NCBI GenBank assembly: GCA_030605415.1
Contig: JAUWIJ010000005.1
Coordinates: 2,375 to 66,374, forward strand
DNA length: 64,000 bases
DNA from: an archaeon
Lineage (GTDB): Archaea; Nanobdellota; Nanobdellia; Pacearchaeales; GW2011-AR1
Direction of reading: 5' to 3'
Under the pieces are notes generated by a model that was not told where the DNA came from, ran no database searches, and saw only the letters and a program-made list of their open reading frames with translations. Positions 5,573-57,814 of the stretch are shown piece after piece (within the stretch, counting starts at the first letter, position 1; every line of letters starts with the position of its first letter). The position numbers and the translations under genes were made by a program.

Positions 5573-5573
5573 A

Positions 5574-5963: not shown

Positions 5964-5964
5964 A

Positions 5965-6222: not shown

Positions 6223-6356
6223 ATGAAATCAAAGATTTCATTTACGGTGTTCGGAGTTCGGGTTGTCGGTGTTACCCTCACAAATATAAAGGAAAATCAG
6301 GTTGGGGCAGGCCCTCGGGGCTTGGGCAACTGTTGTTATGGGAGGTTATTGTTAAA
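6223..6356 (+). repeat. mosaic intercistronic element, copy E1 (hairpin + heptamers + core + tail)
   Basis: ATGAAATCAAAGATTTCAT hairpin directly after the L23 TAA; GGTGTTC-type words; core TACCCTCACAAATATAAAGGAAAATCAGGTTGGGGCAG at 6273-6310; GGGGCTTGGGCAACT tail; GGGAGG before the L2 ATG. Confidence 0.9.
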
Positions 6357-7055
6357 ATGGGAAAGAGAATAATTCAACAGCGACGCGGAAGGGGTGGACA
6401 TACTTATAAGACCAGAGAGAAAGCTGGGAAAATTAGGCCAGGTTATGCTTCTGGTTTGAAGGGTGAATTTGAGTGTGTGAAACTGATTGCGTCGGTTGGG
6501 CATTCTGTTCCAATTGCAAAGTTCATGAATAAGGGCGGTGAGATCTTCCATAATTTTTCGGTTGATTTATTATATGTTGGGCAGAAAATTGGCATTAATG
6601 GAAATAAGCCGGGTGATATTGCGAAGCTTGGGGATTTGAAGAATGGGACTGAGGTTTTTAATATTGAGTATAATCCTAAGGATGGAGGAAAGTTTGTCAG
6701 AACTGGTGGGAATTTTGGGACAATTATGGCGAAAGAGGGAGATGTTGTTAAGATTATGATGCCGTCGAAAAAGGTGAAGAAATTTAACGTGAATTGCAGG
6801 GCGACTGTTGGTCGGGCTGCGGGAGATGGTAGAATGGATAAGCCGATTTTGAAGGCGGGTAAGAAGTTTTATATAATGAAAACAAAATCTAAATTATGGC
6901 CGAGAACTTCTGCTGTTAAGATGAATGCTATTGACCATCCGTTTGGTAGTGGTCGGGGGAAAAGAATGAAAAGTAAAATTGCTAAGAGAAATGCGTCGCC
7001 GGGTAAGAAGGTTGGTTTAATTAGACCGAGAAGAACAGGGAGGAAGAAAAGATGA
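6357..7055 (+). CDS. rpl2: 50S ribosomal protein L2 (uL2)
   Basis: MGKRIIQQRRGRGG start, DHPFGSGRGK motif, operon position. Confidence 0.95.
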   Translation: MGKRIIQQRRGRGGHTYKTREKAGKIRPGYASGLKGEFECVKLIASVGHSVPIAKFMNKGGEIFHNFSVDLLYVGQKIGINGNKPGDIAKLGDLKNGTEVFNIEYNPKDGGKFVRTGGNFGTIMAKEGDVVKIMMPSKKVKKFNVNCRATVGRAAGDGRMDKPILKAGKKFYIMKTKSKLWPRTSAVKMNAIDHPFGSGRGKRMKSKIAKRNASPGKKVGLIRPRRTGRKKR

Positions 7056-7154
7056 AATCTTCGATTGCATCTTTTCGGGTGGTCGGTGGTTCGGACGCTT
7101 CGCTGGTCGGTGTTCGGGGCTTGAGCAACTTGACATGGAGGGGGATGAAATAAA
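7052..7154 (+). repeat. mosaic intercistronic element, copy E2 (core-less)
   Basis: ATGAAATC overlaps the L2 TGA; degenerate hairpin; GGTCGGTGGTTCGGACGCTTCGCTGGTCGGTGTTCGGGGCTTGAGCAACT; GGAGGGGG before the next ATG. Confidence 0.9.
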
Positions 7155-7466
7155 ATGGCAATTTTAATGGATGGCATGGAAAGAGAAAGGGCATGTGTTT
7201 CTTATTTGGAATCTCTTGGGGTACTTGATAGTGAAAGTTTATGTCTTGCTGGGCATAAATATATACTTCGTGTAGATGATGAAGATTCTTTTTATCAAAT
7301 AGCAGAAGCTACTGGAGTTGATAGAATTATAAATTATGATGGTGATGGTTTGGATTTTGAGATACAAATTCCATCAAAACCGCGTAACGATACATGGTTT
7401 GTGTTTTTGAGTTATTGCAAAAGTGACGCTTTTTTAAATAAATATAATATAGGGGGAACACAATAA
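7155..7466 (+). CDS. orphan protein inserted between L2 and S19
   Basis: 103-aa ORF preceded by element E2 and followed 2 nt later by the S19 ATG. No family recognised. Confidence 0.5.
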   Translation: MAILMDGMERERACVSYLESLGVLDSESLCLAGHKYILRVDDEDSFYQIAEATGVDRIINYDGDGLDFEIQIPSKPRNDTWFVFLSYCKSDAFLNKYNIGGTQ

Positions 7467-7468
7467 TA

Positions 7469-7867
7469 ATGGTAGAAACAATACAAAAGAGAGATAAAAG
7501 CAAATTTTATCGGGGGAAGAAAACTGAAGAATTAAAATCGGTTGATACCCGGGAGTTTGCGAAGTTGGTTAAGGCTCGAGAGAGAAGAACGATTTTGAGA
7601 AACTATGATGTTATCGAGGCTTTTGTTGCGAAGTGTGAGAAAAACACTCTGAAAAATAAACCAATAAAAACCCATGATAGAAGTTTGGTTATTGTTCCAA
7701 AAATGGTCGGTAAAACTATTGGGGTTCATAATGGAAAGGAGTTTAGTAAGGTTGTCATTGTTGAAGAAATGTTGGGACATAGATTGGGTGAATTTTCTAT
7801 GACGAGAAAAATTGCAAAACATACATCCGTTGGAGGCGGAGCTAAAAAGAAGGTGGTAGATAAATAA
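7469..7867 (+). CDS. rps19: 30S ribosomal protein S19 (uS19)
   Basis: GKTIGVHNGKEF and GHRLGEFSMTRK motifs. Confidence 0.95.
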   Translation: MVETIQKRDKSKFYRGKKTEELKSVDTREFAKLVKARERRTILRNYDVIEAFVAKCEKNTLKNKPIKTHDRSLVIVPKMVGKTIGVHNGKEFSKVVIVEEMLGHRLGEFSMTRKIAKHTSVGGGAKKKVVDK

Positions 7868-7868
7868 A

Positions 7869-8501
7869 ATGGCAGCACCGAGTGTACCCTTGAAGGGCAA
7901 AGAAATAAAAGAAACTGCACCCAAGGGTGTACCTCCTGCCCGGATGGCATCCGATAAATCGGACAAGGTCGGCAAAGAAAAATCAAAAGTAGACGAGACT
8001 CCAAAAATGAAAACAGATGTTGAAAAAGTGGAAAATATTAAAGCCGAGAAAGGCAAGAAAAAAAAGATTGTTAAACAAAAGGAGATTTCTAAAAAGGATG
8101 TTGCGGTTGCTAATGGTTTTTCGTTGAAGATTTCGCCTAAGCAATCTAAATATATTATGAGAATTATTCGAGGCAAGAGTCCTGACAATGCCGTTGTAAG
8201 ATTGCAGGATGTTATTAGCGAGAAAAGAGTTGTTCCTATGGCTGGTTTGGAAGTTGGACATAAGAAAGGAAAAGGACTTGCTGGTGGTAAATTTCCGAAA
8301 AATGCGTGTAAGGCGATTATTGAGATTGTGAAGCAGGTTAAAGCTAATTCCATTATTGCTGGAATTGAGAATTCTGTGATTAGTATTGCCAGATCTGATA
8401 GGGCTTCGGCCCCGTATAGAAAGGCCGGGCGAAAAGCCAAGAGGACTCATATTCATATTGAGATTCGAGATAGAACTAAATCGATTGGGAAAGCAAAATA
8501 A
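7869..8501 (+). CDS. rpl22: 50S ribosomal protein L22 (uL22) with a long Lys-rich N-terminal extension
   Basis: C-terminal two thirds (ISPKQSKYIMRIIRGKS...HIHIEI) is L22. The N-terminus contains the 59-nt repeat shared with L3. Confidence 0.9.
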   Translation: MAAPSVPLKGKEIKETAPKGVPPARMASDKSDKVGKEKSKVDETPKMKTDVEKVENIKAEKGKKKKIVKQKEISKKDVAVANGFSLKISPKQSKYIMRIIRGKSPDNAVVRLQDVISEKRVVPMAGLEVGHKKGKGLAGGKFPKNACKAIIEIVKQVKANSIIAGIENSVISIARSDRASAPYRKAGRKAKRTHIHIEIRDRTKSIGKAK

Positions 8502-9193
8502 TGGAAGAAAAGAAATTTGTTGGAGTAAGAAAGGACGAGTATAATATTAAACAGTTTGTAAAGCGAATGTTTGGCAAGGGAAAGGTTTCAAAAGTTCGGA
8601 TTGAGTATACTCCCGTCGGAGAGAGAATTGTTGTTTCGACGCATAAGCCGGGTTGGATAATTGGTAAGCGAGGTGAGAAGATTAATGAGCTGACTGAAAT
8701 TTTAAAGAAACGATTTAAGATGGAGAATCCCCACGTTGATATTGAGGAGATTATGCATCCTGAGTTTGATGCGCAGTTGGTTGCCGACGATATTGCTTTG
8801 ACTCTTGAGAGATTCGGTGCGATGAAATATAAAGCGGCAAGTTATAGAGCTCTTGGAAAAATTAAAAATTCTGGTGCATTGGGTGCTGAGCTGAGGTTAT
8901 CAGGTAAATTGCCAAGTGATAGGGCGAGGGTTTGGAGATTTCATTTTGGTTATTTGAAGAAAACTGGGGACGCTGCGAAAGTTGTAGATAGGGCTGAGTC
9001 TATTGCTCAGACGAAACAAGGTATTGTTGGAATTAAAGTTGCGATTTTGGCTCCGGGTATTAAGATGTGTGACCAAATTACTATTGATGAAGATTTTATG
9101 AATAAAGTTAGGAGTAATGCTGCTTTTGAAATTGTTGAAGAGGTTAAAGTTAAAAAGAAACGGAAGGTGGTGAGGAAAAATAATGGTAAATAA
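8501..9193 (+). CDS. rps3: 30S ribosomal protein S3 (uS3)
   Basis: KH-domain pattern GWIIGKRGEKINELTEILKKRF and operon position. Confidence 0.93.
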   Translation: MEEKKFVGVRKDEYNIKQFVKRMFGKGKVSKVRIEYTPVGERIVVSTHKPGWIIGKRGEKINELTEILKKRFKMENPHVDIEEIMHPEFDAQLVADDIALTLERFGAMKYKAASYRALGKIKNSGALGAELRLSGKLPSDRARVWRFHFGYLKKTGDAAKVVDRAESIAQTKQGIVGIKVAILAPGIKMCDQITIDEDFMNKVRSNAAFEIVEEVKVKKKRKVVRKNNGK

Positions 9194-9431
9194 AAAAATT
9201 ATGACAGCGAAGGAAATGAAGAGAAAAATTATTGATTTGAAGATTGAGTTATTGAAAAATGTAACGAAAAGAAAAAGCATTAAAAAGGAAATTGCGCGGT
9301 TATTAACTATGGCAAGAAGCTCTGCTTCTCGGGGTGTCGGTGTTCGGGGTGTCGGGGTGTCGGATGCTGAAACAACTGGGAACAAGAAGGGAAAGAAAAG
9401 TAATACTAAATCGGATGGAGGGAGCAAGTAA
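9183..9431 (+). CDS. rpl29: 50S ribosomal protein L29 (uL29) with a repeat-derived C-terminal extension
   Basis: The KEMKRKIIDLKIELLK...IKKEIARLLT core is L29. The tail SSASRGVGVRGVGVSDA is encoded by GGTGTTC/GGGTGTC words. Confidence 0.85.
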   Translation: MVNKKIMTAKEMKRKIIDLKIELLKNVTKRKSIKKEIARLLTMARSSASRGVGVRGVGVSDAETTGNKKGKKSNTKSDGGSK

Positions 9432-9732
9432 AGTGGAAATTTGTCCGAAGTGTGGATTGCCTATGCCGGCGTGTGTTTGTGGCGAGATTGCCAAGACGCA
9501 ACAGCAAATTACTGTGAAAACGGAGACAAGGCGTTTCGGAAAAGTTAATACTATAATAAGTGGATTCGACGACGGTGTTAATATTAAAGACCTCGCAAAA
9601 AAGCTCAAAATGAAAAGGGCTTGTGGCGGAACGGTTAAAAATAAAATTATCGAATTGCAAGGAAATCACAAGAGCTTCATAAAACCTATTTTGGTTTCAG
9701 AAGGTTTTAGCGAGGACCAAATAAATGATTAA
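9415..9732 (+). CDS. translation initiation factor SUI1/aIF1
   Basis: N-terminal zinc knuckle CPKCGLPMPACVCG followed by the SUI1 fold pattern ITVKTETRRFGKVNTIISGF...LAKKLKMKRACGGTV. Start could also be GTG 9433. Confidence 0.85.
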   Translation: MEGASKVEICPKCGLPMPACVCGEIAKTQQQITVKTETRRFGKVNTIISGFDDGVNIKDLAKKLKMKRACGGTVKNKIIELQGNHKSFIKPILVSEGFSEDQIND

Positions 9733-10090
9733 AATGGTAAAGAAAAAAATTGATAAGAAAATTGAGAAGATTGAAGATGTCGAATGTAAGGATAGACTTT
9801 GTCCTAAGCATGGAGATAGAAAATTGAAGATGCGAGGTCGGACTTTTGAGGGTGTTGTGATTAGAAAGCGAAATACTCGGGTTACAATTCAGTTTGAGAG
9901 AATGTTGAAACTGCCGAAGTATGAGAGATATGAAAAAAGGAAAACGAAGATTCACGCGAGACTGCCTGACTGTATGAAAAATGATGTTGCGATTGGAGAC
10001 TTGATTCAGATTACAGAAACTCGACCAATTAGCAAGATGATTCACTTTGTTGTTGTTAAAGTTGTTAAAAAAGTGGAGGCTAAAATATGA
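9725..10090 (+). CDS. rps17: 30S ribosomal protein S17 (uS17)
   Basis: CPKHG, RGRTFEGVVI and GDLIQITETRPISK motifs. Confidence 0.92.
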   Translation: MIKMVKKKIDKKIEKIEDVECKDRLCPKHGDRKLKMRGRTFEGVVIRKRNTRVTIQFERMLKLPKYERYEKRKTKIHARLPDCMKNDVAIGDLIQITETRPISKMIHFVVVKVVKKVEAKI

Positions 10091-10217
10091 AATCAAAGAT
10101 TTCATATTTGCGGTGGTCGGTGGTCGGACGCTACCCTCACAGATATAAAGGAGAAACAGGTTGGGGCACACTGTTCGCTGGTCGGGGTTCGGGGCTTGAG
10201 CAACTGGAGGTACTGAA
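10087..10217 (+). repeat. mosaic intercistronic element, copy E3 (core-bearing)
   Basis: ATGAAATCAAAGATTTCAT overlaps the S17 TGA. The 42-nt core (10132-10173) interrupts GGACGC^TTCGCTGG. GGGGCTTGAGCAACT tail, then GGAGGT. Confidence 0.9.
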
Positions 10218-10577
10218 ATGAAAGGTAGAATAGAAACACAAAAGGCATTTAATAAAGAATCTTTAATTAATAACAAATGGTACAGGATAAATATTGGCTG
10301 TATTTATACAGAAGCAATGTGGGCTAATAACCTCCCTTTTGAAAAAGAGTGCTTTATTAGATTAAACACTGCAGATTATCAAAAAGGAATGGAAGGAAGG
10401 GATATAGAATGTTGGAATGGAGAGATAATTGGATTTTCAAGGGAAGGGAGTGTTCTAATTAATCCCAAAGAATATGGATTAGAATTTATTTACCCAAGAG
10501 ACCCACAATATAATTCTTTACTAGAACAAATGACAAAAACAAAGGAATTTAGAAAATTATTGGAGGTAAAGAAATGA
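10218..10577 (+). CDS. orphan protein inserted between S17 and L14
   Basis: 119-aa ORF with an ATGA overlap at the L14 start. Flanked by a 16-nt imperfect direct repeat, GGAGGTACTGAAATGA at 10206 and GGAGGTAAAGAAATGA at 10562. Confidence 0.5.
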   Translation: MKGRIETQKAFNKESLINNKWYRINIGCIYTEAMWANNLPFEKECFIRLNTADYQKGMEGRDIECWNGEIIGFSREGSVLINPKEYGLEFIYPRDPQYNSLLEQMTKTKEFRKLLEVKK

Positions 10578-10975
10578 GAGCAATAAGTGGAAGAGCGACG
10601 AGGAGTTTGAATATTGGGAGTTTGTTGGAGGCTTGTGATAATAGCGGGGCACGGATTTGTCGGATTGTTTCGATTAAGCATGGGAAAACTTCTAAGGGTC
10701 GGCAGGGTTATGCGAAAATTGCGGACTGGGTTAAGGTTTCAGTTAGAAAGGGCGACCCGAAAATGAAAGGAGAGGTTTTCGACGCTGTTCTTGTCAGGCA
10801 GAGAAAACCATGGAGAAGAAATACTGGAGAGCGAGTCTGTTTCAGCGATAATGCGGTTGCGCTTTTAAAAGACGAAAAAGGGAATCCAAAAGGAACACAG
10901 GTTAAAGGAGTTGTTGCTCGAGAGATTCAGGAAAGATGGAAGGAGGTTGCTAAAATTGCGGGGGGGGTATATTAA
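10574..10975 (+). CDS. rpl14: 50S ribosomal protein L14 (uL14)
   Basis: CDNSGAR and FDAVLVRQRKPWRR motifs. Confidence 0.95.
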   Translation: MRAISGRATRSLNIGSLLEACDNSGARICRIVSIKHGKTSKGRQGYAKIADWVKVSVRKGDPKMKGEVFDAVLVRQRKPWRRNTGERVCFSDNAVALLKDEKGNPKGTQVKGVVAREIQERWKEVAKIAGGVY

Positions 10976-10976
10976 G

Positions 10977-11447
10977 ATGAAATCAAAATTTAGTAAATCG
11001 TGGAATTCGAGTAAGCAACCGAGGAAGCAGGTTAAGTTTAGGGTGAATGCGCCGAATCATATTAAGCGGACATTTATGGGAACCACTTTAGATAAGCCAT
11101 TGAGAGAGAAATATGGGAGACGAAATATTGAAGTTAGAAAGGGCGACGAGGTTAAAGTTATGCGAGGGAAGTTTAAAGGGAAGCAGGGGAAAGTTGGAAG
11201 TGTTGATGTTAAAAGGACAAGGATTCAGATTGAGGGAATTCAGAGAGTTAAAGCTGGTGGGGAAAAGTTGATTACGTGGTTCCATCCGTCAAATGTTAAG
11301 ATAATTATTTTAGACAATGAGGATGCTCGGAGATTGAAACGCGGGAAGAAGGTAGTTGGGGAAACGGTATCCGCTGACGTGGACAAGGTCGACAAAATTA
11401 AGAAGACTGTTAAGAAAACTAAAAAAATAACTAAGGAGAAAAAATAA
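10977..11447 (+). CDS. rpl24: 50S ribosomal protein L24 (uL24)
   Basis: SKQPRKQ and KGDEVKVMRGKFKGKQGKV (KOW) motifs. Start at the internal Met of ORF-track 10911..11447. Confidence 0.92.
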   Translation: MKSKFSKSWNSSKQPRKQVKFRVNAPNHIKRTFMGTTLDKPLREKYGRRNIEVRKGDEVKVMRGKFKGKQGKVGSVDVKRTRIQIEGIQRVKAGGEKLITWFHPSNVKIIILDNEDARRLKRGKKVVGETVSADVDKVDKIKKTVKKTKKITKEKK

Positions 11448-12106
11448 TGGCACATATTAAAAAAACTCAAATGTCCACTTTGTGGCCGGTTCCACGGAAG
11501 GGAAGAGGAAGGAGATTTGTAGCTGTGCCTAGTCATGCGACTTCAAAGGGTATTTCGATTTTGTTTTTACTTAGAGATGTTTTGAAAATTGTAAAGACGA
11601 GGAAGGAGGCTAGGCATATGACATTAAACGGAATGGTTAAGGTTAATAATCAAATCAGGAAGGATGAGAATTTCCCGGTACAGGTTTTCGACACGATTAA
11701 TCTTGAAAAGGCAAAGTTGAATTATAGACTGGAGATTGTTAATAAGAAATTTAGTCTGATTAAAATTTCGGTCAAGGATGCTGAGAATAAGATTGTTAAG
11801 ATTAGCGGGAAAAAGATTCTTGGAGTTAAAAAGATTCAGATGAATCTCGATGATGGGCAGAATATTATTATGAAAGAAAAGTTTTCGGTTGGGGATTCGG
11901 TTGTTTTGAATACTAAGGAAAAGAAAGTTGTGAAAATTTTGCCGTTGAAAGAGGGGGCCGATGTGGAAATTGTCGCAGGGAAGCATGCCGGGAAGAAAGG
12001 CAAGTTGATTGGCTTTGAAAGTTTGGTTCGAGGTAGAAGTTATCAAATTAAATTAAAAGATAGAACTGTGAGTTTGCCTTACAAGACTATTTTGGTGATT
12101 GGATAA
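11447..12106 (+). CDS. rps4e: 30S ribosomal protein S4e (eS4)
   Basis: WPVPRKGRGRRFVAVPSH motif and operon position after L24. Confidence 0.93.
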   Translation: MAHIKKTQMSTLWPVPRKGRGRRFVAVPSHATSKGISILFLLRDVLKIVKTRKEARHMTLNGMVKVNNQIRKDENFPVQVFDTINLEKAKLNYRLEIVNKKFSLIKISVKDAENKIVKISGKKILGVKKIQMNLDDGQNIIMKEKFSVGDSVVLNTKEKKVVKILPLKEGADVEIVAGKHAGKKGKLIGFESLVRGRSYQIKLKDRTVSLPYKTILVIG

Positions 12107-12636
12107 TGGCAAATAAAATGAGAGAAATTAAGTTGGATAAGGTCGTTTTGAATATTGGCGGAGTTGCTGATAAGTTGGATAAGGGAATTATTTTGCTTGA
12201 AACTATTAGCGGAAAGAAGGCGATTAAAGTTAAAGCTACTAAGAGAATTCCGACGTGGAGTGTTCGGCCTGGTTTGGAAGTTGGAACGAAGGTTACGTTA
12301 CGAGGCAAGGATGCTTTGAATATGGTTAAAAAATTGTTGCCGGCAATTGATAATACGTTGAAGGAGAAGCAGATTCAGGATAATTGTTTTTCGTTTGGGA
12401 TACATGAATATATTGAGATTCCGGGTGTTGAGTATATTAGAGAAGTTGGAATTATGGGATTTGAAGTTACGATTGTGTTTTCGAGGGCTGGCAAATCGGT
12501 CGAAAAGAAAAAGGTTAAAAGGGGAAAATCTCGTAGATTAATTGTTACGCGTAAAGAAATTGAAGATTATCTTGTAACTAAATTTAACACAGAAATTTTG
12601 CGGAAACAAAAGAAGATTATGGAGGACGAAGAATAA
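12106..12636 (+). CDS. rpl5: 50S ribosomal protein L5 (uL5)
   Basis: NCFSFGIHEYIEIPG and MGFEVTIV motifs. Confidence 0.93.
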   Translation: MANKMREIKLDKVVLNIGGVADKLDKGIILLETISGKKAIKVKATKRIPTWSVRPGLEVGTKVTLRGKDALNMVKKLLPAIDNTLKEKQIQDNCFSFGIHEYIEIPGVEYIREVGIMGFEVTIVFSRAGKSVEKKKVKRGKSRRLIVTRKEIEDYLVTKFNTEILRKQKKIMEDEE

Positions 12637-12637
12637 A

Positions 12638-12868
12638 ATGACAGCGAGTGATTGGAGAAAAATAACGAGACAGCTTCGGGGAAAGCCGGCTGTGCTTAAG
12701 AAGTTTTTGAAACATAATAAACCAAAAGCTAGAAAATTTGGCGTTGCTGCCTATAAATGTGAAGTCTGCGGACGACACGGTGCGCATATTTCATCTTATA
12801 ATCTAAATTTATGCCGACACTGTTTCAGAGAGTTGGCAGTTGAACTGGGGTTCAAAAAATACTCATGA
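12638..12868 (+). CDS. rps14: 30S ribosomal protein S14 (uS14, zinc type)
   Basis: CEVCGRHGAHISSYNLNLCRHCFRE zinc motif and operon position. Confidence 0.9.
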   Translation: MTASDWRKITRQLRGKPAVLKKFLKHNKPKARKFGVAAYKCEVCGRHGAHISSYNLNLCRHCFRELAVELGFKKYS

Positions 12869-12986
12869 TATTCGTATTTTCGGTGTTCGGTGTTACCCTC
12901 ACAAATATAAAGGAACATCAGGTTGGGGCAGGCCCTCGGATGGTCGGATGGTCGGGGCTTGAGCAACTAAAGATGGAGGTTTTGGA
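12865..12986 (+). repeat. mosaic intercistronic element, copy E4 (core-bearing, hairpin degenerate)
   Basis: ATGA overlap with the S14 stop; GGTGTTC words; core at 12894-12931; GGGGCTTGAGCAACT; GGAGGT before the S8 ATG. Confidence 0.9.
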
Positions 12987-13364
12987 ATGAGTCAAGATAT
13001 AGTAGCGGATGGGTTAAATCAGATAATGAACGCGAAGCAAATAGGGAAGATGGATATTGTTATTAAGCGGTGCTCTAAGGTCTTGTTGAATTTGTTTGAG
13101 ATAATGAAGGCGGAGGGTCATATTGATTATGAAGTTAATAAGGAAGAGAAAACGGTTAGTGTTAAGGTGATTAAACTGAATAAGTGCAGGGCGATTAAGC
13201 CGAGATATTATGTTGGCGTTGATGGTATTGATAAGTATATGAGGCGATTTTTGCCATCGAGGAATTTCGGCAGTTTGATTATCTCGACAAATATGGGATT
13301 ATTAAATCACAAAGATGCAATTAAAAATAAAGTAGGAGGAAGCGTTATCGCTTATTTTTACTGA
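12987..13364 (+). CDS. rps8: 30S ribosomal protein S8 (uS8)
   Basis: DIVADGLNQIMNA start and GGSVIAYFY end are typical of S8. Confidence 0.93.
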   Translation: MSQDIVADGLNQIMNAKQIGKMDIVIKRCSKVLLNLFEIMKAEGHIDYEVNKEEKTVSVKVIKLNKCRAIKPRYYVGVDGIDKYMRRFLPSRNFGSLIISTNMGLLNHKDAIKNKVGGSVIAYFY

Positions 13365-13552
13365 TGGTAGACGGAGTTGAGCGCTGTAATGATTGTATAT
13401 TTGAAGAAGGGGTCCTAAGAAATACGACCAAGAGCGTGGATGAAAGCTGTTATTGTATTCGTTTTGGGAAAACGAATTCAGATGGCGTAATAGGAGCTAA
13501 GGAATGTTCTATTAATCCTTATTATAAAACTAAGGGAGCCCAAAATGAATAA
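13364..13552 (+). CDS. orphan small Cys-rich protein inserted between S8 and L6
   Basis: TGATG overlap with the S8 stop and an 8-nt overlap (ATGAATAA) with the L6 start. 62 aa with 5 Cys. Confidence 0.45.
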   Translation: MVDGVERCNDCIFEEGVLRNTTKSVDESCYCIRFGKTNSDGVIGAKECSINPYYKTKGAQNE

Positions 13553-14087
13553 AGATTTAGAGAGAGTTGTCGAGATTCCTGAAGGAGTTGAAGTTATTAT
13601 TAGTGAGAATAATTTTGTTGTTAAGGGTGATGGTAATGAGTTAAGTAGAAGTTTTAATCTGGGAAAGATTGGCGCTGTGGTTAAGGATGATAAAGTTGTT
13701 TTGACGGCGAAGGGGGCAACTCGGCGAGAATCAAAAATGATTGGAACAGTTTGGGCGCATTTGAAGAATATGATTAAGGGAATAGGCGAGGAGTTTGTTT
13801 ATGAGCTTGAGGTTTGTAATGTGCATTTTCCTATGAATGTAAAAGTTGATGGAGATAGAATTGTTATCAAATCTTTTTTGGGTGAGACAATAGAGAGAGT
13901 TGCAAAGATTTTGCCAAATGTTAAGATAGATATTAAGGGAAATAAAATTACAGTTAGCTCAAACAATATTGAAGCGGCTGGACAGACTGCGGCAAATTTA
14001 GAAAAAGCGACTCGATTAACTGGGCGAGATAGGCGAATTTTTCAAGACGGAATTTTTATGACTAAAAAACCGTGGAGGGTTATTTGA
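13545..14087 (+). CDS. rpl6: 50S ribosomal protein L6 (uL6)
   Basis: Two-domain L6 pattern with a RIFQDGIF C-terminal motif; operon position. Confidence 0.92.
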   Translation: MNKDLERVVEIPEGVEVIISENNFVVKGDGNELSRSFNLGKIGAVVKDDKVVLTAKGATRRESKMIGTVWAHLKNMIKGIGEEFVYELEVCNVHFPMNVKVDGDRIVIKSFLGETIERVAKILPNVKIDIKGNKITVSSNNIEAAGQTAANLEKATRLTGRDRRIFQDGIFMTKKPWRVI

Positions 14088-14190
14088 TGAAATCAAAGAT
14101 TTCATCATCGGTGTTCGGTGGTTCGGACGCTTCGCTGGTCGGTATTCGGGGCTTGGGCAACTGGATGTTATATTGGAGTGTTAAAATAAA
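14087..14190 (+). repeat. mosaic intercistronic element, copy E5 (core-less)
   Basis: TGATGAAATCAAAGATTTCATCA hairpin on the L6 stop; GGTGTTCGGTGGTTCGGACGCTTCGCTGGTCGGTATTCGGGGCTTGGGCAACT. Confidence 0.9.
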
Positions 14191-14604
14191 ATGGTAGAAG
14201 AAAAGAAAACAGTGTCGAGAAAGAAGCCGAAGTTTTTGCGGACGGATTGGCATAAGAAGATTAGACTTGGGCGGGGCGTTAAGAAAAATCAGAAATGGCA
14301 TGGAGCGAAAGGAAGGCAAAATAAGTTAAGATTAAATAGAAAAGGGCGAGGACAGAGACCTAAAGTTGGTTGGGGAGCCCCAAAAGGAATTCGGGATTTG
14401 GTATTGGGAATTAGGTATGTTAGGGTTGAAAATATTAACGAACTTCTAAAAGTCAAAAAGGGATTTGGTATTATTATTGGGAAAGTTGGGGCGAAGAAAA
14501 GGGCTGATATTATTGTAAAGGCGAACGAAATGAAAATGAAAATTTTAAATAAATATAAAATGAAAGATGAGAAGCCAGTAGTTAAGCAGGGGGATAAGAA
14601 ATGA
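14191..14604 (+). CDS. rpl32e: 50S ribosomal protein L32e (eL32)
   Basis: KPKFLRTDWHKKIRLG...WHGAKGRQNK motif. Confidence 0.92.
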   Translation: MVEEKKTVSRKKPKFLRTDWHKKIRLGRGVKKNQKWHGAKGRQNKLRLNRKGRGQRPKVGWGAPKGIRDLVLGIRYVRVENINELLKVKKGFGIIIGKVGAKKRADIIVKANEMKMKILNKYKMKDEKPVVKQGDKK

Positions 14605-15002
14605 ATTTAGCAAAGAAGAAGAATTTGGCGGCGAAAGTTTTGAAGGTTGGAAGGAATCGGATTGTTTTTGTTAAGGAACATTTGTCTGAGATTAAGGAAG
14701 CGATTACGAGATTGGACATTTTGGATTTGAATAAAAGTGGGGCAATTCAGATTAAGGAAGTTAGCGGTAGGAAAAAAATTGTCAAAAGGAAGAATCGGAG
14801 AAGAGTTGGGAAGGTTAAAAATAAAGTTAATAACCGGAAGGCAGAGTATGTGATAATTACCAGGAAGTTGAGAAAATTTATTAGGGGACTTGTTAGAACT
14901 GGCGCGGTTGATAAAGAGAAAAATAGGGAAATTAGAAAACAGATTCGGGCGCGGAAGTTTAAAAGCAAAAGACATTTAAAAGAAAGTTTGGAGGAATTAT
15001 AA
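14601..15002 (+). CDS. rpl19e: 50S ribosomal protein L19e (eL19)
   Basis: LAAKVLKVGRNRI start and a basic repeat-rich body; operon position. Confidence 0.92.
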   Translation: MNLAKKKNLAAKVLKVGRNRIVFVKEHLSEIKEAITRLDILDLNKSGAIQIKEVSGRKKIVKRKNRRRVGKVKNKVNNRKAEYVIITRKLRKFIRGLVRTGAVDKEKNREIRKQIRARKFKSKRHLKESLEEL

Positions 15003-48620: not shown

Positions 48621-49840
48621 TGAGGCTTGATCATTTAATTCTGGCGTTGAAGAATTTGAGGCATCGTGGAATTCGTTCTTGGTTGACTTTGCTTGGGATT
48701 TTTATTGGCGTGACCGCTGTTGTTTCTTTGATGAGTTTGGGTGCTGGGTTGCAGGCGGCGGTTGGCGCTCAATTTGGAATCAGTTCTACAGAAGTTATAA
48801 CTGTTCAGGCAGGGGGGGTTAATGCTTTTGGCGCACCTGGAAGCGGGGCTGTTGATCGTCTGACAAATGCCGATGTTCGAGCCATTGAAAGTTTGTCTAG
48901 TGTAGATTTAGCCATCGGAAGAAATATCGAGACATTTAAAGTAGAATATAATGACCGGGTTGTATTTAATATGGGGGCGGGATTTCATGAGGGAGAAAAA
49001 GGGAAATGGGATTATGAGATGCAAGATATCGAAGCGGAAAAAGGACGGCTTCTGCAGGCGGGAGATAGAAAAAAGGTTATCTTGGGGTATAACTATATGT
49101 TTGAGGATAAAAATGGTTTTGATAAAGCGGTGCAAGTAGGCGATAAGATAAATTTGAATGATGTTTCTTTTAGAGTTGTTGGGATAATGAGCAAAAAGGG
49201 TAGTCTTATTATTGATAATATTATTGGGATTACAATTGATGATTTGGACGACCTTGTAGATAATGAAGATTATGTCGACGTTGTTTCTGTTAAGGTTAAA
49301 CGAAGTGATTTAATGGATAAGGCAGTAGGGGATATTACTAAGTTATTGAGGGACAGGAGAGATGTCGACGAGGGAGAAGAGGATTTTGAAGTTTCTACTC
49401 CGGAGGCAATGATGGAAACTGTTAATAGTATTCTTGGGGGCGTTCAGGCTTTTATTATAATTATTGCATCGATTTCAATTTTGGTCGGGGCGCTTGGAAT
49501 TGTTAATACGATGACGGCTTCTGTTTTGGAAAGGAGAAAAGAGATTGGAATTATGAAAGCGATTGGCGCTACAAATTTTCAGGTTTTTTTGCAGTTCTTT
49601 TTTGAGTCTGGGATGTTGGGTTTTATTGGTGGCTTGATTGGTGTGATTTTTGGGACTTTGATTGGTGTTGCGGGAATTATGGGAATTAATAGTTATCTTG
49701 GGGCGGAACTTTCTTTTGTGATTGATTTTGTGTTGATTGCGGGAGCTTTGATTGGAAGTTTTGTGGTTGGAGCCGTTGCGGGGATTGTTCCGGCGATGAG
49801 TGCAGCTAAACAAAATCCGGTGGAGGCGCTACGAGGATGA
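48620..49840 (+). CDS. ABC transporter permease (MacB-like periplasmic domain + FtsX domain)
   Basis: N-terminal TM, large extracytoplasmic domain, C-terminal FtsX TM bundle (ERRKEIGIMKAIGAT). Confidence 0.88.
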   Translation: MRLDHLILALKNLRHRGIRSWLTLLGIFIGVTAVVSLMSLGAGLQAAVGAQFGISSTEVITVQAGGVNAFGAPGSGAVDRLTNADVRAIESLSSVDLAIGRNIETFKVEYNDRVVFNMGAGFHEGEKGKWDYEMQDIEAEKGRLLQAGDRKKVILGYNYMFEDKNGFDKAVQVGDKINLNDVSFRVVGIMSKKGSLIIDNIIGITIDDLDDLVDNEDYVDVVSVKVKRSDLMDKAVGDITKLLRDRRDVDEGEEDFEVSTPEAMMETVNSILGGVQAFIIIIASISILVGALGIVNTMTASVLERRKEIGIMKAIGATNFQVFLQFFFESGMLGFIGGLIGVIFGTLIGVAGIMGINSYLGAELSFVIDFVLIAGALIGSFVVGAVAGIVPAMSAAKQNPVEALRG

Positions 49841-49924
49841 AATTAAAATCAAAGATTTTAATTTCGGTGTTCGGTGTTCGGTGTTCGGTGTTCGGTGACT
49901 TGGGCAACTTAAGGAGGTTCGGGA
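49837..49924 (+). repeat. mosaic intercistronic element, copy E8 (core-less, four GGTGTTC heptamers)
   Basis: ATGA overlap with the permease stop; 12-bp hairpin GAAATTAAAATC-AAA-GATTTTAATTTC; (GGTGTTC)x4; CTTGGGCAACT tail; AGGAGG. Confidence 0.9.
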
Positions 49925-51136
49925 ATGGTGATTAGTAAAGAGAGTGTGAAATATTCTTTGAATAATATTAAGAAAAGCAAGGCGAGAAGTGTGCTTACGA
50001 TTTTATCTATTTTTGTTGGGATTGCTACGATTTTTATTTTTGTTAGTTTTGGGTGGGGACTTTATGATTATATTGATGAGTTTACTTCGTCGTCGTCGGC
50101 AGATAAGTTGATGATTATGCCCAAGGGTGGTCTTATTCCTGGTCTGGATACGACGTTTAAACTTTTGGATGATGACGTGGAGGCGATTAAAAAAACGGCA
50201 GGGGTTTATGAGGCGACGGGAGTGCATATGGGTGTAGCTGAGGTGATACAAGGCGATTCGAAAAAATATGTATTTGTTGCAAGTTACGATCCTGACTTAC
50301 CGATGATAATGGAACTTTCTGACGTTGAGGTAGTTGAGGGACGGGCTCTTCGGGATGGCGATTCTGGGAAGGTTACTTTGGGATATAATTATATGATTAA
50401 GAATAAAATTTTCCCTAAAGCGTATTCTTTGAATAGTAAAATTAATGTGCAGGGGCAGGATCTTCGGGTCGTCGGGTTTTACGAGAAAATTGGGAACCCG
50501 CAGGATGATTCTAATATTTATGTGACGAATGATTTTGTGTCTGAGCTTTATCCGGATAAAATTATTTCTTATGGTATGATAATTGCGCGGGCGGATAAGG
50601 ATAATGTTGATGAGGTCGGTGAAAGGGTTGAGAAGAAGCTGGGGCAGTTTAGAGATTTGGACGAAGGGAAAGAGGATTTTACCGTCGAGTCTTACGCCGG
50701 CTTGTTGGAATCTTATATGATTGTTTTGGATATTATTGTCGGGTTTATTATTTTGATTGCTTTAATTTCCGTACTTGTGTCGGCGGTTAATACTGCGAAT
50801 ACTATGATTACTTCGGTGCTTGAGAGATTTAAGGAGATTGGGGTTTTGAAATCTATTGGCGCCCGGAATAGTGAAATTTTTAAGATATTTTTATTTGAGT
50901 CTGGGTTTCTTGGATTTGTCGCTGGGGTGATTGGAGTTTTGGCTGGATGGGGAATGACGATTTTTGCGGCGAATGCTTTGGATAGTTTTGGATATGGGTT
51001 TTTGAGTCCGCATTATTCCTGGGTTTTGTTTAGCGGGCTGGTTTTATTTGCAACTTTAACTGGTGCGATTTCTGGGATGATTCCAGCTTGGAGAGCGAGT
51101 AAGATTAATGCTGTTGATGCGCTTCGCTACGAGTAA
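49925..51136 (+). CDS. ABC transporter permease (second MacB/FtsX-type subunit)
   Basis: Same architecture as 48620..49840 (ERFKEIGVLKSIGAR). Confidence 0.88.
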   Translation: MVISKESVKYSLNNIKKSKARSVLTILSIFVGIATIFIFVSFGWGLYDYIDEFTSSSSADKLMIMPKGGLIPGLDTTFKLLDDDVEAIKKTAGVYEATGVHMGVAEVIQGDSKKYVFVASYDPDLPMIMELSDVEVVEGRALRDGDSGKVTLGYNYMIKNKIFPKAYSLNSKINVQGQDLRVVGFYEKIGNPQDDSNIYVTNDFVSELYPDKIISYGMIIARADKDNVDEVGERVEKKLGQFRDLDEGKEDFTVESYAGLLESYMIVLDIIVGFIILIALISVLVSAVNTANTMITSVLERFKEIGVLKSIGARNSEIFKIFLFESGFLGFVAGVIGVLAGWGMTIFAANALDSFGYGFLSPHYSWVLFSGLVLFATLTGAISGMIPAWRASKINAVDALRYE

Positions 51137-51138
51137 TC

Positions 51139-54986: not shown

Positions 54987-54987
54987 A

Positions 54988-55292: not shown

Positions 55293-55402
55293 ATGGCTAA
55301 AGTAATATTTTCAATATTTCATAAATCCATTTTTAGGAGATTGAAAAATGGCTAAAGTAACATTAGAAATGTTTCATGAATCCATTTTTAGGAGATTGAA
55401 AA
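55293..55402 (+). repeat. two tandem 55-nt copies of the DUF655 gene's leader plus start codon, each an upstream mini-ORF
   Basis: The units ATGGCTAAAGTAAT...TAGGAGATTGAAAA (55293) and ATGGCTAAAGTAAC...TAGGAGATTGAAAA (55348) differ at 6 of 55 positions. The gene itself starts ATGGCTAAAGAAG at 55403. Confidence 0.85.
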
Positions 55403-55939
55403 ATGGCTAAAGAAGAGAATGCGGTTATATTGGATTTTTTGCCTTATGGCTATCCGTTGGAAAATAAAAGAATGCCTATGGCTCAAGCTATCGGAACTAT
55501 CGGACTTACTTTGCTTCAACTTGTTCCTCGACGAGGAGAAAGGTTTGAAGTTGGAGAGGTTGTTTATATTGGTGATGGGAAGCGAGAGAAGGTTCAATAT
55601 ATTCTTGGACGATGTCCGAGGGAAAAGTTAACTGAGGCGGCGAAGCGTGAGATGGAAGAGTTTGTTAAGAATGCGGTCGAAAAAGATGAGCAAAAATTTG
55701 TTAAGTTTTTTAATGAGGCGCAAGCTATAAATACTCGACTTCATCAATTTGAATTGTTGCCTGGACTTGGAAAGAAACATACGAGAGCGATTCTTGCGGC
55801 GAGAAAAGAAAAGGATTTCGAGTCATTTGATGATATCAAAAAGCGAATTCCCAATATACCCTCTCCGGAGAAGCTTATTGAAAAAAGAATTATGGAAGAG
55901 TTGACAGAAATACAGAGACATAATTTGTTTATTTTGTAA
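55403..55939 (+). CDS. DUF655-family nucleic-acid-binding protein (OB + helix-hairpin-helix)
   Basis: AVILDFLPYGYP start, LHQFELLPGLGKKHTRAIL HhH motif, conserved neighbourhood with rpoF. Confidence 0.75.
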   Translation: MAKEENAVILDFLPYGYPLENKRMPMAQAIGTIGLTLLQLVPRRGERFEVGEVVYIGDGKREKVQYILGRCPREKLTEAAKREMEEFVKNAVEKDEQKFVKFFNEAQAINTRLHQFELLPGLGKKHTRAILAARKEKDFESFDDIKKRIPNIPSPEKLIEKRIMEELTEIQRHNLFIL

Positions 55940-57015: not shown

Positions 57016-57402
57016 ATGGTAAAGAATGAAGATAATGTTGGGGTTTTGAATATTTATGCGAGTTTTAATAATACGATTGCGACCGTGACTGATTTGGCTG
57101 GGAATACTATTGGGCGGATTTCTGGTGGGCAGATTACGAAGCATGACCGGATGAGGGCGAATCCTACGATTGCTATGTTTATTGCGAAGAAGGTGCATGA
57201 CGCGTGTAGGGATTATAGGATTAAAACGCTTTATGTCAGGATGAAGGGGCAAACTGGGGCGACTGGAATCGGACCTGGGGCGCATGCGATTGTTCGGACT
57301 TTGACTAAAGAGGGATTTAAAATTTTAAGTATAGTTGAGACGACTGCTGTTGCTCGTGGTGGTCCAAAAAAGAAGGGCGGAAGAAGGGGGCGGAGAGTAT
57401 GA
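57016..57402 (+). CDS. rps11: 30S ribosomal protein S11 (uS11)
   Basis: ASFNNTIATVTDLAGNTI and GPGAHAIVRTLTKEGFKI motifs. Confidence 0.95.
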   Translation: MVKNEDNVGVLNIYASFNNTIATVTDLAGNTIGRISGGQITKHDRMRANPTIAMFIAKKVHDACRDYRIKTLYVRMKGQTGATGIGPGAHAIVRTLTKEGFKILSIVETTAVARGGPKKKGGRRGRRV

Positions 57403-57508
57403 TGAAATCAGAGATTTCATCATCGGTGTTCGGACGCTTCGCTGTTCGGTGTTCGGACGCTTCGCTGTTCGGGGCTTGGCGGTTAAGTAAAGTTGGGGGA
57501 ATGAAATA
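57399..57508 (+). repeat. mosaic intercistronic element, copy E7 (core-less, two GGACGCTTCGCTGTTCGG units)
   Basis: ATGATGAAATCAGAGATTTCATCA hairpin on the S11 stop. GGTGTTCGGACGCTTCGCTGTTCGG occurs twice. GGGGCTTGGCGG tail variant. Confidence 0.88.
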
Positions 57509-57814
57509 ATGGGAGAAGAACATGTTGCGCCTTATAGTGAGAAAGTTGCTCGAGCTAATGTGAGGGAGGGAAATTTTAGAGATTATGATGGGAATGAGAT
57601 TGGGACTGTAGAAAATTTAGTTGCAGAGTTTACTGATGCTTTTTATCAAATTAATATGTGGGTAAGTGGCAGGATGGCTGGCACAAGAATCAAAGATACT
57701 GTGAATAATTATAAAGCCATAAGATACTGCTATAATCATGATACGCATGGAATGGATGATAAAATAAATGAAGAATTGAGGCATTATTCTTGCACTTTTG
57801 GTGTTAAGATATAA
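57509..57814 (+). CDS. orphan protein inserted between S11 and RpoD
   Basis: 101-aa ORF whose start overlaps the stop (TAATG) of the element-spanning frame. No family recognised. Confidence 0.45.
   Translation: MGEEHVAPYSEKVARANVREGNFRDYDGNEIGTVENLVAEFTDAFYQINMWVSGRMAGTRIKDTVNNYKAIRYCYNHDTHGMDDKINEELRHYSCTFGVKI

What the first reader, a model, noticed from the sequence alone, without database searches (positions are those of the whole stretch)
12865..12990. Element-spanning reading frames start on the upstream stop codon and often end on the downstream start codon
All eight junction copies begin with an ATG overlapping or abutting the upstream stop. ATGA occurs at 7052, 10087, 12865, 16655 and 49837; TGATG at 14087; ATGATGA at 57399; TAAATG at 6223. 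In four cases (L2, S17, S5, permease) the upstream gene's TGA is the TGA inside the element's ATGAAATC terminus. The frame opened by that ATG stays open across the element. In five of eight copies it stops on, or 1 nt before, the next gene's start: ATGA at 10218 and 12987, TAATG at 16795 and 57509, TAA-a-ATG at 7151-7157. The shared DNA is read in different frames in different copies: the core reads VTLTNIKE.QVGAG in two copies and RYPHRYKGETGWGT in two. Any selection therefore seems to be for ribosome transit and coupling, not for a peptide. Caveats: G/T-rich words contain no stops by composition, and the naive chance of landing in the right end frame is about 1 in 3, so 5 of 8 is only suggestive.
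Basis: seen in the sequence. Interest (0 to 1): 0.7.

Follow-up and report, generated by a model that had tools for sequence, protein, structure and literature searches.

The report
Ribosome-relay repeats between archaeal operon genes
A small archaeon (DPANN/Pacearchaeota-like) has short repeated DNA inserts at the stop/start junctions of its ribosomal-protein genes, and each insert keeps a throw-away reading frame that runs from the upstream stop codon to the next gene's start, apparently so ribosomes pass from gene to gene, much like the MIRU repeats of mycobacteria.

Summary
All eight junction copies carry an ATG that overlaps or abuts the upstream stop. That frame is open across the element in 8/8 copies and ends 4 nt before to 13 nt after the next start codon (five on it or 1 nt before it).

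Within the window this is only moderately beyond chance (P about 0.005-0.02). Comparative data make it convincing. Related genomes without the element have direct ATGA/TAATG overlaps at these junctions. The S14|S8 element has orthologues in four other diverged lineages. All five start with ATGA on the S14 stop and end with ATGA on the S8 start. Their ATG-to-ATG distances are 122, 80, 86, 83 and 83 nt, all 2 mod 3. This holds despite 1-2 nt indels that compensate each other and a precise 42-nt nested insertion. The peptides differ.

The best explanation is a lineage-specific repeat family that survives in translationally coupled operons only if translation stays continuous (termination-reinitiation relay). 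The idea is known from mycobacterial MIRUs, so I rate this a new, sequence-unrelated archaeal variant. Translation itself is inferred, not shown. How the element spreads is unknown.

The parts
6223..6372 (+). L23|L2 junction element and its 49-codon ORF. The ATG abuts the L23 TAA. The stop at 6370 lies 13 nt past the L2 ATG at 6357.
7052..7154 (+). L2|ORFan junction element without the core. The 33-codon ORF starts at an ATGA on the L2 stop and ends TAA-a-ATG at 7151-7157. GATGAAAT occurs at both ends.
10087..10221 (+). S17|ORFan junction element. The 44-codon ORF has an ATGA on the S17 stop and an ATGA on the next start (10218).
12865..12990 (+). S14|S8 junction element (the finding's coordinates). 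The 41-codon ORF has an ATGA at both ends. Orthologues exist in L012/L017, L018, L019 and L020.
14087..14197 (+). L6|L32e junction element without the core. The 36-codon ORF starts at TGATG. Its stop is TAG in ATGGTAG, 4 nt past the L32e ATG at 14191.
16655..16795 (+). S5|L30 junction element. The 46-codon ORF starts at ATGA and ends at TAATG (16793-16797). The copy is 90% identical to the one at 10087.
   Evidence: (D5)
49837..49935 (+). FtsX|FtsX permease junction element with five perfect TTCGGTG heptamers. The 32-codon ORF starts at ATGA and stops 8 nt past the next ATG at 49925.
57399..57509 (+). S11|ORFan junction element, upstream of the RNA polymerase Rpb3/RpoA-family subunit gene (archaeal subunit D; Pfam PF01000, PF01193). 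The 36-codon ORF starts at ATGATGA and ends at TAATG (57507-57511). ATGAAAT occurs at both ends.
10082..10110 (+). Example of the 5' hairpin (AAATATGAAATC-AAA-GATTTCATATTT), which encloses the upstream stop and the ATG. The same hairpin lies at 6218-6246, 7047-7075, 14082-14110, 16650-16678, 49838-49866 and 57397-57425. A weaker form lies at about 12855-12880.
   Evidence: (folds): 92% of cells paired, 7 of 13 pairs changed on both sides, 0/500 shuffles as good
12894..12935 (+). 42-nt nested 'core' insertion (TACCCTCAC..ATATAAA..AGGTTGGGGCA+5). Other copies start at 6273, 10132, 15321, 16700, 20649, 43185, 63319 and 63421.
   Evidence: L020 is an exact empty site, GGTGT|TCGG.
15321..15362 (+). 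Core copy inside the L18 gene. It is translated in the third frame, and the family's TAA is CAA here. It is part of an insert of about 21-26 aa that relatives lack.
12954..12968 (+). 3' module GGGGCTTGRGCAACT, followed by GGAGG and the next ATG. It also lies at 6317, 7116, 10191, 14148, 16759 and 49895 (variant).
9320..9431 (+). Degenerate GT-repeat element translated as a C-terminal tail of L29 (..RGVGVRGVGV..). The frame ends 1 nt before the SUI1 start.
55293..55410 (+). Two tandem 55-nt units upstream of the DUF655 gene. Each starts ATGGCTAAAG and carries a 20-codon ORF. Each ORF ends at a TAA that lies 5 nt into the next ATGGCTAA (8-nt overlap).
   Evidence: (D13)

Best explanation
What it is. 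The element is a lineage-specific, strand-oriented, modular repeat. It sits exactly at the stop/start overlaps of translationally coupled genes in a DPANN (Pacearchaeota-like) archaeon. Its parts, in order:
- a 5' hairpin that contains the upstream stop and an ATG;
- a stop-free run of G/T heptamers;
- an optional nested 42-nt core;
- a 3' module;
- GGAGG and then the next ATG.

How it works (inferred). A ribosome that terminates on the upstream gene melts the hairpin and reinitiates at the overlapping ATG. In most copies this ATG sits where the ancestral downstream start was, still served by the ancestral Shine-Dalgarno sequence. The ribosome translates a meaningless 27-49-codon ORF through the insert. 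It terminates on or within a few nucleotides of the real downstream start and reinitiates there. This bridges an 84-136 nt gap that would otherwise be too long for coupling. It also keeps the mRNA covered by ribosomes, which could prevent polarity.

Why copies look this way. Copies persist only if they keep this continuity. That is why length mod 3 and frame openness are conserved while the peptide is not.

What is shown and what is inferred.
- Shown: the anatomy, the ancestral state of the junctions, frame and phase conservation among orthologues, and hairpin covariation.
- Inferred: translation, reinitiation and the fitness effect.
- Unknown: how copies spread.
For: 1. 8/8 ORFs start on the upstream stop and are open. 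Their ends lie between -4 and +13 nt of the next start.

2. Relatives with 80-84% identical S4e have no element and have direct ATGA/TAATG overlaps at these junctions. The upstream proteins end at the same residue.

3. GGAGG lies 7-10 nt upstream of 5/8 element ATGs and 7-13 nt upstream of 6/8 downstream ATGs.

4. Five orthologous S14|S8 elements have ATGA at both ends. Their distances are 122/80/86/83/83 nt, all 2 mod 3. The ATG frame has no stop in 5/5. Another frame has at least one stop in 5/5. Indels compensate each other. The naive probability of the phase conservation is about (1/3)^4 = 0.012, on top of the within-window result.

5. Genomes with an identical S14 protein but no element read TAT AGT TAG at the end of S14. 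All element-bearing genomes read TAC TCA TGA. An overlapping ATGA was therefore created at a junction that had none.

6. The nested core is exactly 42 nt, so it preserves the frame, and it was inserted precisely relative to the empty site in L020. Its TAA-containing frame is avoided at junctions and is repaired to CAA inside L18.

7. Other junction inserts in relatives also keep translation continuous:
- L018 L14|L24 (start +2, end -1);
- L018 L5|S14 (ATGA at both ends);
- L020 S5|L30 (7-nt overlap at both ends);
- in-frame N- or C-terminal extensions;
- the 55-nt tandem units at 55293.

8. Literature. Coupling by termination-reinitiation works in archaea and is lost at spacings above about 30-40 nt. 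MIRUs are thought to exploit the same trick (PMC12548453).
Against: - There are no expression or ribosome data.
- The sample is small and the copies are related: eight paralogues and five orthologues of one site.
- The G/T-rich body has few possible stops. In 5/8 copies two of the three frames are open downstream of the hairpin.
- Stops at or next to gene starts are common in this genome in the relevant phase (63%).
- The downstream genes have their own strong GGAGG and could initiate independently.
- Three window copies overshoot the start by 4-13 nt.
- Some inserts in relatives break the pattern. The L012 S4e|L5 ORF ends 17 nt (16-nt gap) before L5. The L019 L5|S14 insert is split into two ORFs.
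- The stable hairpin could just as well block initiation at the ATG.
Confidence: 0.62

Rival explanations
1. By-product. The ATG is only a relic of the ancestral downstream start (or of a gene start carried along by the element). The frame stays open because the insert is A-poor. It closes near the next gene because the spacer between the Shine-Dalgarno sequence and the ATG, and the 5' ends of genes, are A/T-rich. There is no selection on translation.
For: - In 5/8 copies two of the three frames are open downstream of the hairpin.
- P(open) in shuffles is 0.19-0.58 per copy.
- 63% of gene starts have a stop within 1 nt in the relevant phase.
- The element's 5' ends resemble gene starts. ATGAAATCAAAGATTT resembles the L24 start ATGAAATCAAAATTT. 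ATGATATTCGTA equals an L30 start.
Against: - Phase is conserved (2 mod 3) in five diverged orthologues with four different lengths and compensating 1-2 nt indels.
- The joint within-window probability is about 0.005.
- The TAA frame of the core is never used at junctions and is repaired inside L18.
- d=0 never occurs.
- ATGA was newly created at the S14 stop.
Confidence: 0.2
2. The element acts at the RNA or DNA level, and the ORF is incidental. The conserved 5' hairpin could be an mRNA processing or stabilising site, an attenuator, or the recognition or recombination site of whatever machinery copies the element (REP/BIME-like or IS200/IS605-derived).
For: - The hairpin shows strong covariation. 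Its 3' arm is tailored to pair with the ancestral coding bases of each upstream gene.
- 12 of the 13 core copies lie on the + strand; in the spot checks made here (eight junction copies, copies between convergent genes, the single minus-strand copy) each is in sense with its upstream gene.
- The core inserted precisely, with at most 1 nt of target duplication.
- Assemblies break inside the repeats.
Against: - This does not explain conservation of length mod 3 or stop avoidance.
- The rest of the element is not significantly structured (z from -1.3 to +0.6).
- There is no Rfam match.
- No Y1 transposase or RAYT was found among about 45 proteins scanned.
- The S14|S8 orthologues have only a weak hairpin.
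- This explanation is compatible with the best explanation rather than exclusive of it.
Confidence: 0.1
3. The core provides an internal promoter (TATA-like ATATAAAG) that splits the operon into separate transcripts. Coupling would then be irrelevant.
For: The centre of the core resembles the TATA boxes seen about 30 nt upstream of tRNA, 5S and leaderless genes here. A variant lies about 75 nt upstream of the L1 gene.
Against: - Half of the junction elements lack the core.
- Several core copies lie between convergent genes or inside L18, where a promoter makes no sense.
- No BRE-like AAC/G precedes the core's TATA-like centre (comparison by eye with the promoters listed).
- The G-rich stretch between the TATA-like centre and the predicted start site is atypical.
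Confidence: 0.04
4. The mini-ORFs encode functional small proteins.
For: The N-terminus (MKSKIS / M.FVFS) and some C-termini (..L.MEVLE) recur. The gene caller annotated them.
Against: - The shared DNA is read in different frames in different copies.
- The L012 orthologue is frameshifted through its middle.
- The recurring residues coincide with the hairpin and the GGAGG DNA motifs.
- A search of 5.8 billion proteins found nothing.
Confidence: 0.03

Closest known systems
MIRU (mycobacterial interspersed repetitive units; Supply et al. 1997, as summarised in PMC12548453)
   Same: Both are short repeats found inside operons in the sense orientation. Both insert at start codons. Both carry a small ORF whose ends overlap the flanking stop and start (4-nt overlap). 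In both cases the ORF is thought to keep downstream translation coupled. The 55-nt tandem units at 55293-55402 resemble MIRUs even in being tandem.
   Different: - The host is an archaeon (DPANN), and nothing here points to a shared sequence (not aligned against a MIRU consensus).
- The element is composite: hairpin, heptamer run, optional 42-nt nested core, 3' module. It is not a tandem array of 46-101 bp units.
- It invades ribosomal-protein operons.
- Frame conservation is documented here across orthologues.
Rickettsia palindromic elements (RPE; PMC10969869)
   Same: Both are short repeats tolerated inside protein-coding genes as in-frame insertions. Here these are the core in L18, the GT repeats in the L29 tail, and the 19-aa module shared by L3 and L22.
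   Different: RPEs are about 150 bp, palindromic, and encode a conserved peptide. Here the inserts are 42-60 nt, no peptide is conserved, and most copies lie at junctions rather than inside genes.
REP/BIME, ERIC and Correia-type intergenic repeats and MITEs
   Same: All are multi-copy, short, and lie between genes of operons. All contain a hairpin. All can affect mRNA fate.
   Different: No terminal inverted repeats span the element. There is no clear target-site duplication. No RAYT or transposase was found nearby. The defining trait here is reading-frame continuity, which those families do not show.
Translational coupling by termination-reinitiation at ATGA/TGATG overlaps (Huber et al. 2019, 2023, cited in PMC12548453)
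   Same: The same 4-nt and 1-nt overlap configurations occur at both ends of every mini-ORF. The mechanism has been demonstrated in an archaeon (Haloferax).
   Different: Here two coupling steps are chained through a non-coding 'relay' ORF supplied by a repeat element. This is untested experimentally.

Membership tests
MIRU-like intercistronic relay repeats (functional class) | Located between co-oriented genes of an operon, in the sense orientation | tested here: met
   All eight copies lie on the + strand between + strand genes of the ribosomal-protein, FtsX and S13-S11 (RNA polymerase subunit) operons.
MIRU-like intercistronic relay repeats (functional class) | Internal ORF whose start overlaps the upstream stop and whose stop overlaps the downstream start | tested here: met
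   The start overlaps or abuts the upstream stop in 8/8 copies. The stop is on or 1 nt before the next start in 5/8 copies and within +4 to +13 nt in 3/8. Five of five S14|S8 orthologues have ATGA at both ends.
MIRU (the mycobacterial family itself) | Mycobacterial host and the MIRU consensus sequence, with tandem 46-101 bp units | tested here: not met
   The host is a DPANN archaeon. The element is a single composite unit with internal heptamers. Only the 55-nt units at 55293 are tandem. No alignment against a MIRU consensus was run.
MITE | Terminal inverted repeats and target-site duplication | tested here: inconclusive
   No inverted repeat between the element's ends was found (and inspection). 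Direct repeats (G)ATGAAAT flank 3/8 copies, and ATGGTARТ-like 8-mers (ATGGTAGT / ATGGTAAT) flank the L020 S5|L30 insert. The core inserted with at most 1 nt of duplication.
REP/BIME or IS200/IS605-derived palindromic elements | Conserved hairpin with an adjacent guide or target motif, and a cognate Y1 transposase (RAYT or TnpA) in the genome | tested here: inconclusive
   The hairpin is real. No Y1 transposase was found among about 45 proteins of the 64-kb window. The rest of the genome was not available.
RPE-like in-frame intragenic repeats | Repeat copies inserted in frame inside conserved protein genes | tested here: met
   L18 carries an insert of about 21-26 aa that contains the 42-nt core with TAA changed to CAA. 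L29 has a translated tail. L3 has a 19-aa insert shared with L22.
Known RNA families (Rfam 15) | Match to a curated covariance model | tested here: not met
   The whole window at the gathering threshold gives only tRNAs and 5S rRNA. Positions 6000-17000 at E<=1 give no match.

The most novel reading that the evidence does not exclude
These may be a previously undescribed class of 'operon-safe' selfish elements in DPANN archaea. They would be built to invade the stop/start overlaps of the most highly expressed, translationally coupled operons. Each would carry a relic start codon inside a hairpin, a stop-free spacer and a fresh Shine-Dalgarno sequence. They would be colonised in turn by a 42-nt, codon-neutral element that leaves no target duplication and can also sit inside genes. 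Together with the ORFan genes that swap at the same junctions, this would make ribosomal-protein operons of these reduced genomes hotspots of insertion governed by ribosome continuity, spread by a still unknown copying mechanism.
Probability: 0.3. Interest if true: 0.75.

Novelty: new variant of a known kind. Interest (0 to 1): 0.6.

Why it matters
- It would be the first archaeal counterpart of the MIRU idea. It is also a rare case where sequence comparison alone shows selection on 'being translated' rather than on the product.
- It offers a natural test bed for termination-reinitiation and polarity in archaea.
- It shows that even the universally conserved ribosomal-protein operons of streamlined DPANN genomes can be colonised, provided ribosome flow is preserved.
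- It warns annotators that dozens of 27-49-codon 'hypothetical proteins' in such genomes are relay ORFs, and that these repeats fragment assemblies.

Tried and rejected
- The strict core pattern found 0 matches in both genome contigs and metagenome contigs. The core is confined to this lineage.
- A search of 5.8 billion proteins with the concatenated mini-ORF peptides gave nothing at E<=10. It yielded no extra copies and no conserved peptide.
- Extending the contig added 8.4 kb upstream and 6 kb downstream. This gave four more core-like copies (three on the + strand, including a shorter variant upstream of L1, and one on the minus strand), but no more junction elements. The downstream part looks like a separate repeat-rich mobile region.
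- Two look-ups failed because the exact product was not on record.
- An RNA hairpin within the core was rejected: pairing holds only in the CT/TT..AT subclass (and inspection).
- A promoter role for the core was rejected as a general explanation because of where the copies lie.
- There is no Rfam match.
- No transposase or RAYT was found in the window.
- An association between elements and the ORFans that follow them (3/8) is not beyond chance.
- Identical-protein look-ups for L14 and S11 found only the same strain.

Full report
**Context**

The window is part of a 99.8-kb metagenomic contig (ENA ERZ4220937 NODE_20, record positions 21751-85750). The organism is a DPANN archaeon. Its S4e protein is at most 87% identical to anything else in the database, and the named hits are Pacearchaeota or Nanoarchaeota. 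Positions 3466-19601 hold the archaeal L3-to-SecY ribosomal-protein operon. An S13-S4-S11 and RNA polymerase (Rpb3/RpoA-family) subunit operon lies at about 55.9-60 kb, and an FtsX permease pair at 48.6-51.1 kb. The coding strand has an unusually strong GC skew of about +0.4.

**Check of the observation**

- Eight junction copies start with an ATG that overlaps or abuts the upstream stop: ATGA five times, ATGATGA, TGATG and TAA-ATG.
- The frame opened by that ATG has no stop across the insert in 8/8 copies.
- It ends on the next start (ATGA at 10218 and 12987; TAATG at 16795 and 57509), 1 nt before it (7151), or 4-13 nt after it (14195, 49933, 6370).
- The shared core is read in two different frames in different copies.

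Within the window the signal is moderate.
- Dinucleotide shuffles give P(open) of 0.19-0.58 per copy (product 6e-5).
- The fairer question is which of the three frames is open downstream of the hairpin. That gives 0.0049, or roughly 0.01-0.02 after discounting related copies.
- 'Ends on the start' largely reduces to the phase. d=2 occurs in 6/8 copies, d=1 in 2/8 and d=0 in none. In the d=2 phase, 63% of all gene starts here have a stop within 1 nt.

**Anatomy**

The element is modular.
1. A 5' hairpin..ATGAAATC-nnn-GATTTCAT.., with stems of 9-13 bp, encloses the upstream stop and the ATG. Seven of 13 stem pairs change on both sides, 92% of cells are paired, and 0/500 shuffles do as well. The 3' arm is tailored to the ancestral last codons of each upstream gene (L2 AAAAGA/TCTTTT, L23 GTAA/TTAC).
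2. A run of G/T heptamers (GGTGTTC and variants) cannot contain stops.
3. An optional 42-nt core follows.
4. The 3' module GGGGCTTGRGCAACT comes next.
5. GGAGG and the next ATG end the element.

Apart from the hairpin the RNA is not significantly structured. Nothing matches Rfam.

**Ancestral state**

Relatives with 80-84% identical S4e (L001, L003, L005, L006) have compact operons with neither elements nor the extra ORFans. Their junctions are direct ATGA or TAATG overlaps, or a 9-12 nt spacer at S14|S8. The upstream proteins end at the same residue with or without the element. In 5/8 copies the ancestral GGAGG still lies 7-10 nt upstream of the element's ATG. The element therefore interrupts sites of ancestral translational coupling, and its ATG usually sits where the old downstream start was.

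**Decisive comparative evidence**

Two searches recovered orthologous S14|S8 elements in four further lineages: a look-up of contigs that encode an identical S14 protein, and a DNA pattern taken from the S14 end of the element. The lineages are L012 (= L017), L018, L019 and L020. Their other ribosomal proteins (S4e, L5, S8, SecY) are about 68-99% identical to the window's.
- All five orthologues begin with ATGA on the S14 stop and end with ATGA on the S8 start.
- The ORFs are 41, 27, 29, 28 and 28 codons long.
- The ATG-to-ATG distances are 122, 80, 86, 83 and 83 nt, all 2 mod 3.
- The ATG frame has no stop in 5/5. The +1 frame has stops in 5/5 and the +2 frame in 3/5.

The alignment shows one 3-nt indel, a +1/+2 pair about 50 nt apart in L012, and a -1/+1 pair in L019. 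It also shows the 42-nt core inserted precisely into GGTGT|TCGG in the window, with L020 as the exact empty site. The peptide changes, and L012 is frameshifted through its middle, yet the frame closes on the S8 start every time. The naive probability of the phase conservation alone is about (1/3)^4.

Genomes that encode the identical S14 protein but lack the element end S14 with TAT AGT TAG. Every element-bearing genome has TAC TCA TGA. The overlapping ATGA therefore arrived with the element at a junction that had no overlap before.

**The same rule elsewhere**

The core's third frame contains a TAA. That frame is never the one used at junctions. In the copy that lies inside the L18 gene, which is read in that frame, the TAA is CAA.

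Other inserts also keep translation continuous.
- A degenerate element forms an L29 tail that ends 1 nt before SUI1.
- L3 and L22 share an in-frame 19-aa module.
- The relatives carry relay ORFs at L14|L24, L5|S14 and S5|L30, and in-frame N- or C-terminal extensions.
- Two 55-nt tandem units upstream of the DUF655 gene each carry a 20-codon ORF that ends 5 nt into the next ATGGCTAA.

There are exceptions. The L012 S4e|L5 ORF stops 17 nt (16-nt gap) short of L5. The L019 L5|S14 insert is split into two ORFs.

**Mechanism**

The best-supported reading is a termination-reinitiation relay. The terminating ribosome opens the hairpin and restarts at the overlapping ATG. It translates the stop-free spacer, terminates on or next to the true start, and restarts there with help from the new GGAGG.

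The literature supports the premises. ATGA and TGATG overlaps couple translation in archaea, and coupling fades beyond about 30-40 nt, whereas the inserts are 84-136 nt. Untranslated RNA provokes polarity in archaea. MIRUs are proposed to exploit exactly this arrangement (PMC12548453).

The steps are inferred, and no expression data were available. The alternative benefit, ribosome coverage that prevents polarity, cannot be separated from reinitiation here.

**Origin and spread**

This is unresolved.
- The canonical 5' end ATGAAATCAAAGATTT resembles the L24 start ATGAAATCAAAATTT.
- The 5' end of the S14|S8 element, ATGATATTCGTA, equals an L30 start.
- Short direct repeats of start regions flank some inserts.

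These points suggest that junction or start sequences are duplicated and carried along. No terminal inverted repeats and no transposase were found.

**Comparison and verdict**

Functionally this matches the MIRU concept and, for the intragenic copies, Rickettsia RPEs (PMC10969869). It is not a member of either family: the host domain and the architecture differ, and nothing points to a shared sequence. I rate it a new variant of a known kind.

Noticed in passing
window 12894-12935 versus L020 (reverse complement, about 530-545); also 6273, 10132, 16700, 20649, 43185, 63319, 63421; L008 about 482-525, 5872, 5952, and about 6198 (minus strand): A 42-nt 'core' (TACCCTCAC..ATATAAA..AGGTTGGGGCA+5 nt) behaves as a separate nested insertion. 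L020 is an exact empty site with at most 1 nt of duplication. The 72 kb examined hold 13 copies, 12 of them on the + strand; in the spot checks made each is in sense with its upstream gene. The centre is TATA-like. The strict pattern has no match in the public genome or metagenome collections.
   Followed up: partly
window 4464-4742, 5574-5963, 7155-7466, 10218-10577, 13364-13552, 15568-15819, 57509-57814; L020rc 963-1169; L018 1182-1433; L007 1023-1262: Small ORFan genes without Pfam matches are inserted between ribosomal-protein genes, usually with ATGA overlaps on both sides. Close relatives carry unrelated ORFans at the same junction (S8|L6 in the window versus L020) or none. This suggests cassette-like turnover inside ribosomal-protein operons.
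   Followed up: partly
window 3832-3890 and 7917-7975; L020rc 1713-1750 and 3025-3070: Translated repeat modules lie inside ribosomal-protein genes. A 19-aa insert in L3 (APKGVPPAQMASADADKVG) recurs at the L22 N-terminus. A 'PSVPLKGKE' module (AGTGTACCC..GGGCAA) sits at the N-termini of L22 (window) and of L32e and S5 (L020). Related versions lie upstream of L5 in L018 and L019 and in the S3 tail of L018.
   Followed up: partly
window 19561-19597 and 20581-20617: The last 37 nt of SecY are duplicated (92% identity) on the far side of two inserted genes: a 23S-rRNA-IVP-family protein at 19712-20089 and a HIT-family protein at 20102-20578. Relatives lack both genes. This looks like an insertion flanked by a long direct repeat of the target.
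   Followed up: partly
window 55293-55402: Two tandem 55-nt units duplicate the start (ATGGCTAAAG) and the Shine-Dalgarno sequence of the DUF655 gene. Each carries a 20-codon ORF that overlaps the next start by 8 nt. This is a MIRU-like tandem relay.
   Followed up: yes
window 2236-2405, 54346-54431, 21177-21208, 43262-43285, 61708-61731, 49863-49897; L003 13395-13428: Many heptanucleotide tandem arrays occur: GGGATTT, CAGAACT/ACTCAGA, TTCGGTG and AGTTGGT. They lie in intergenic regions and even inside L18 of a relative (ACTCAGA x4.9). Heptamer slippage seems typical of this lineage.
   Followed up: no
whole window, especially 1-27000 and 48000-62000: GC skew on the coding strand is very strong (+0.3 to +0.47), far above typical values. 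A low-GC island (0.28-0.33) with little skew at 28-40 kb holds glycosylation genes.
   Followed up: no
window 17650-18194; 38386-39440; 52437-53122: A candidate toxin-antitoxin-like pair (guessed from size and arrangement; only a sub-threshold DUF7515 match) sits between L15 and SecY. It is absent in the relatives (L001-L006, L020) whose loci span L15-SecY. Two HEPN/nucleotidyltransferase pairs lie elsewhere in the window.
   Followed up: no
L010 14384-20402 (about 64-70 kb in window coordinates); window 60648-61187 (minus strand) and 62066-62890 (minus strand): Downstream of the window lies a repeat-rich, gene-poor stretch with N-masked gaps, several other tandem repeat families and tRNA-like fragments. 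It is next to a tyrosine integrase and a serine-recombinase-like gene, so it is probably an integrated mobile element.
   Followed up: no
L022 start and L025 end (Logan contigs of SRR12623522): Independent short-read contigs (Logan, run SRR12623522), identical to the window over the stretches printed, end inside the elements, within the core and within the GT repeats. The repeats fragment assemblies and may be under-represented in MAGs.
   Followed up: partly
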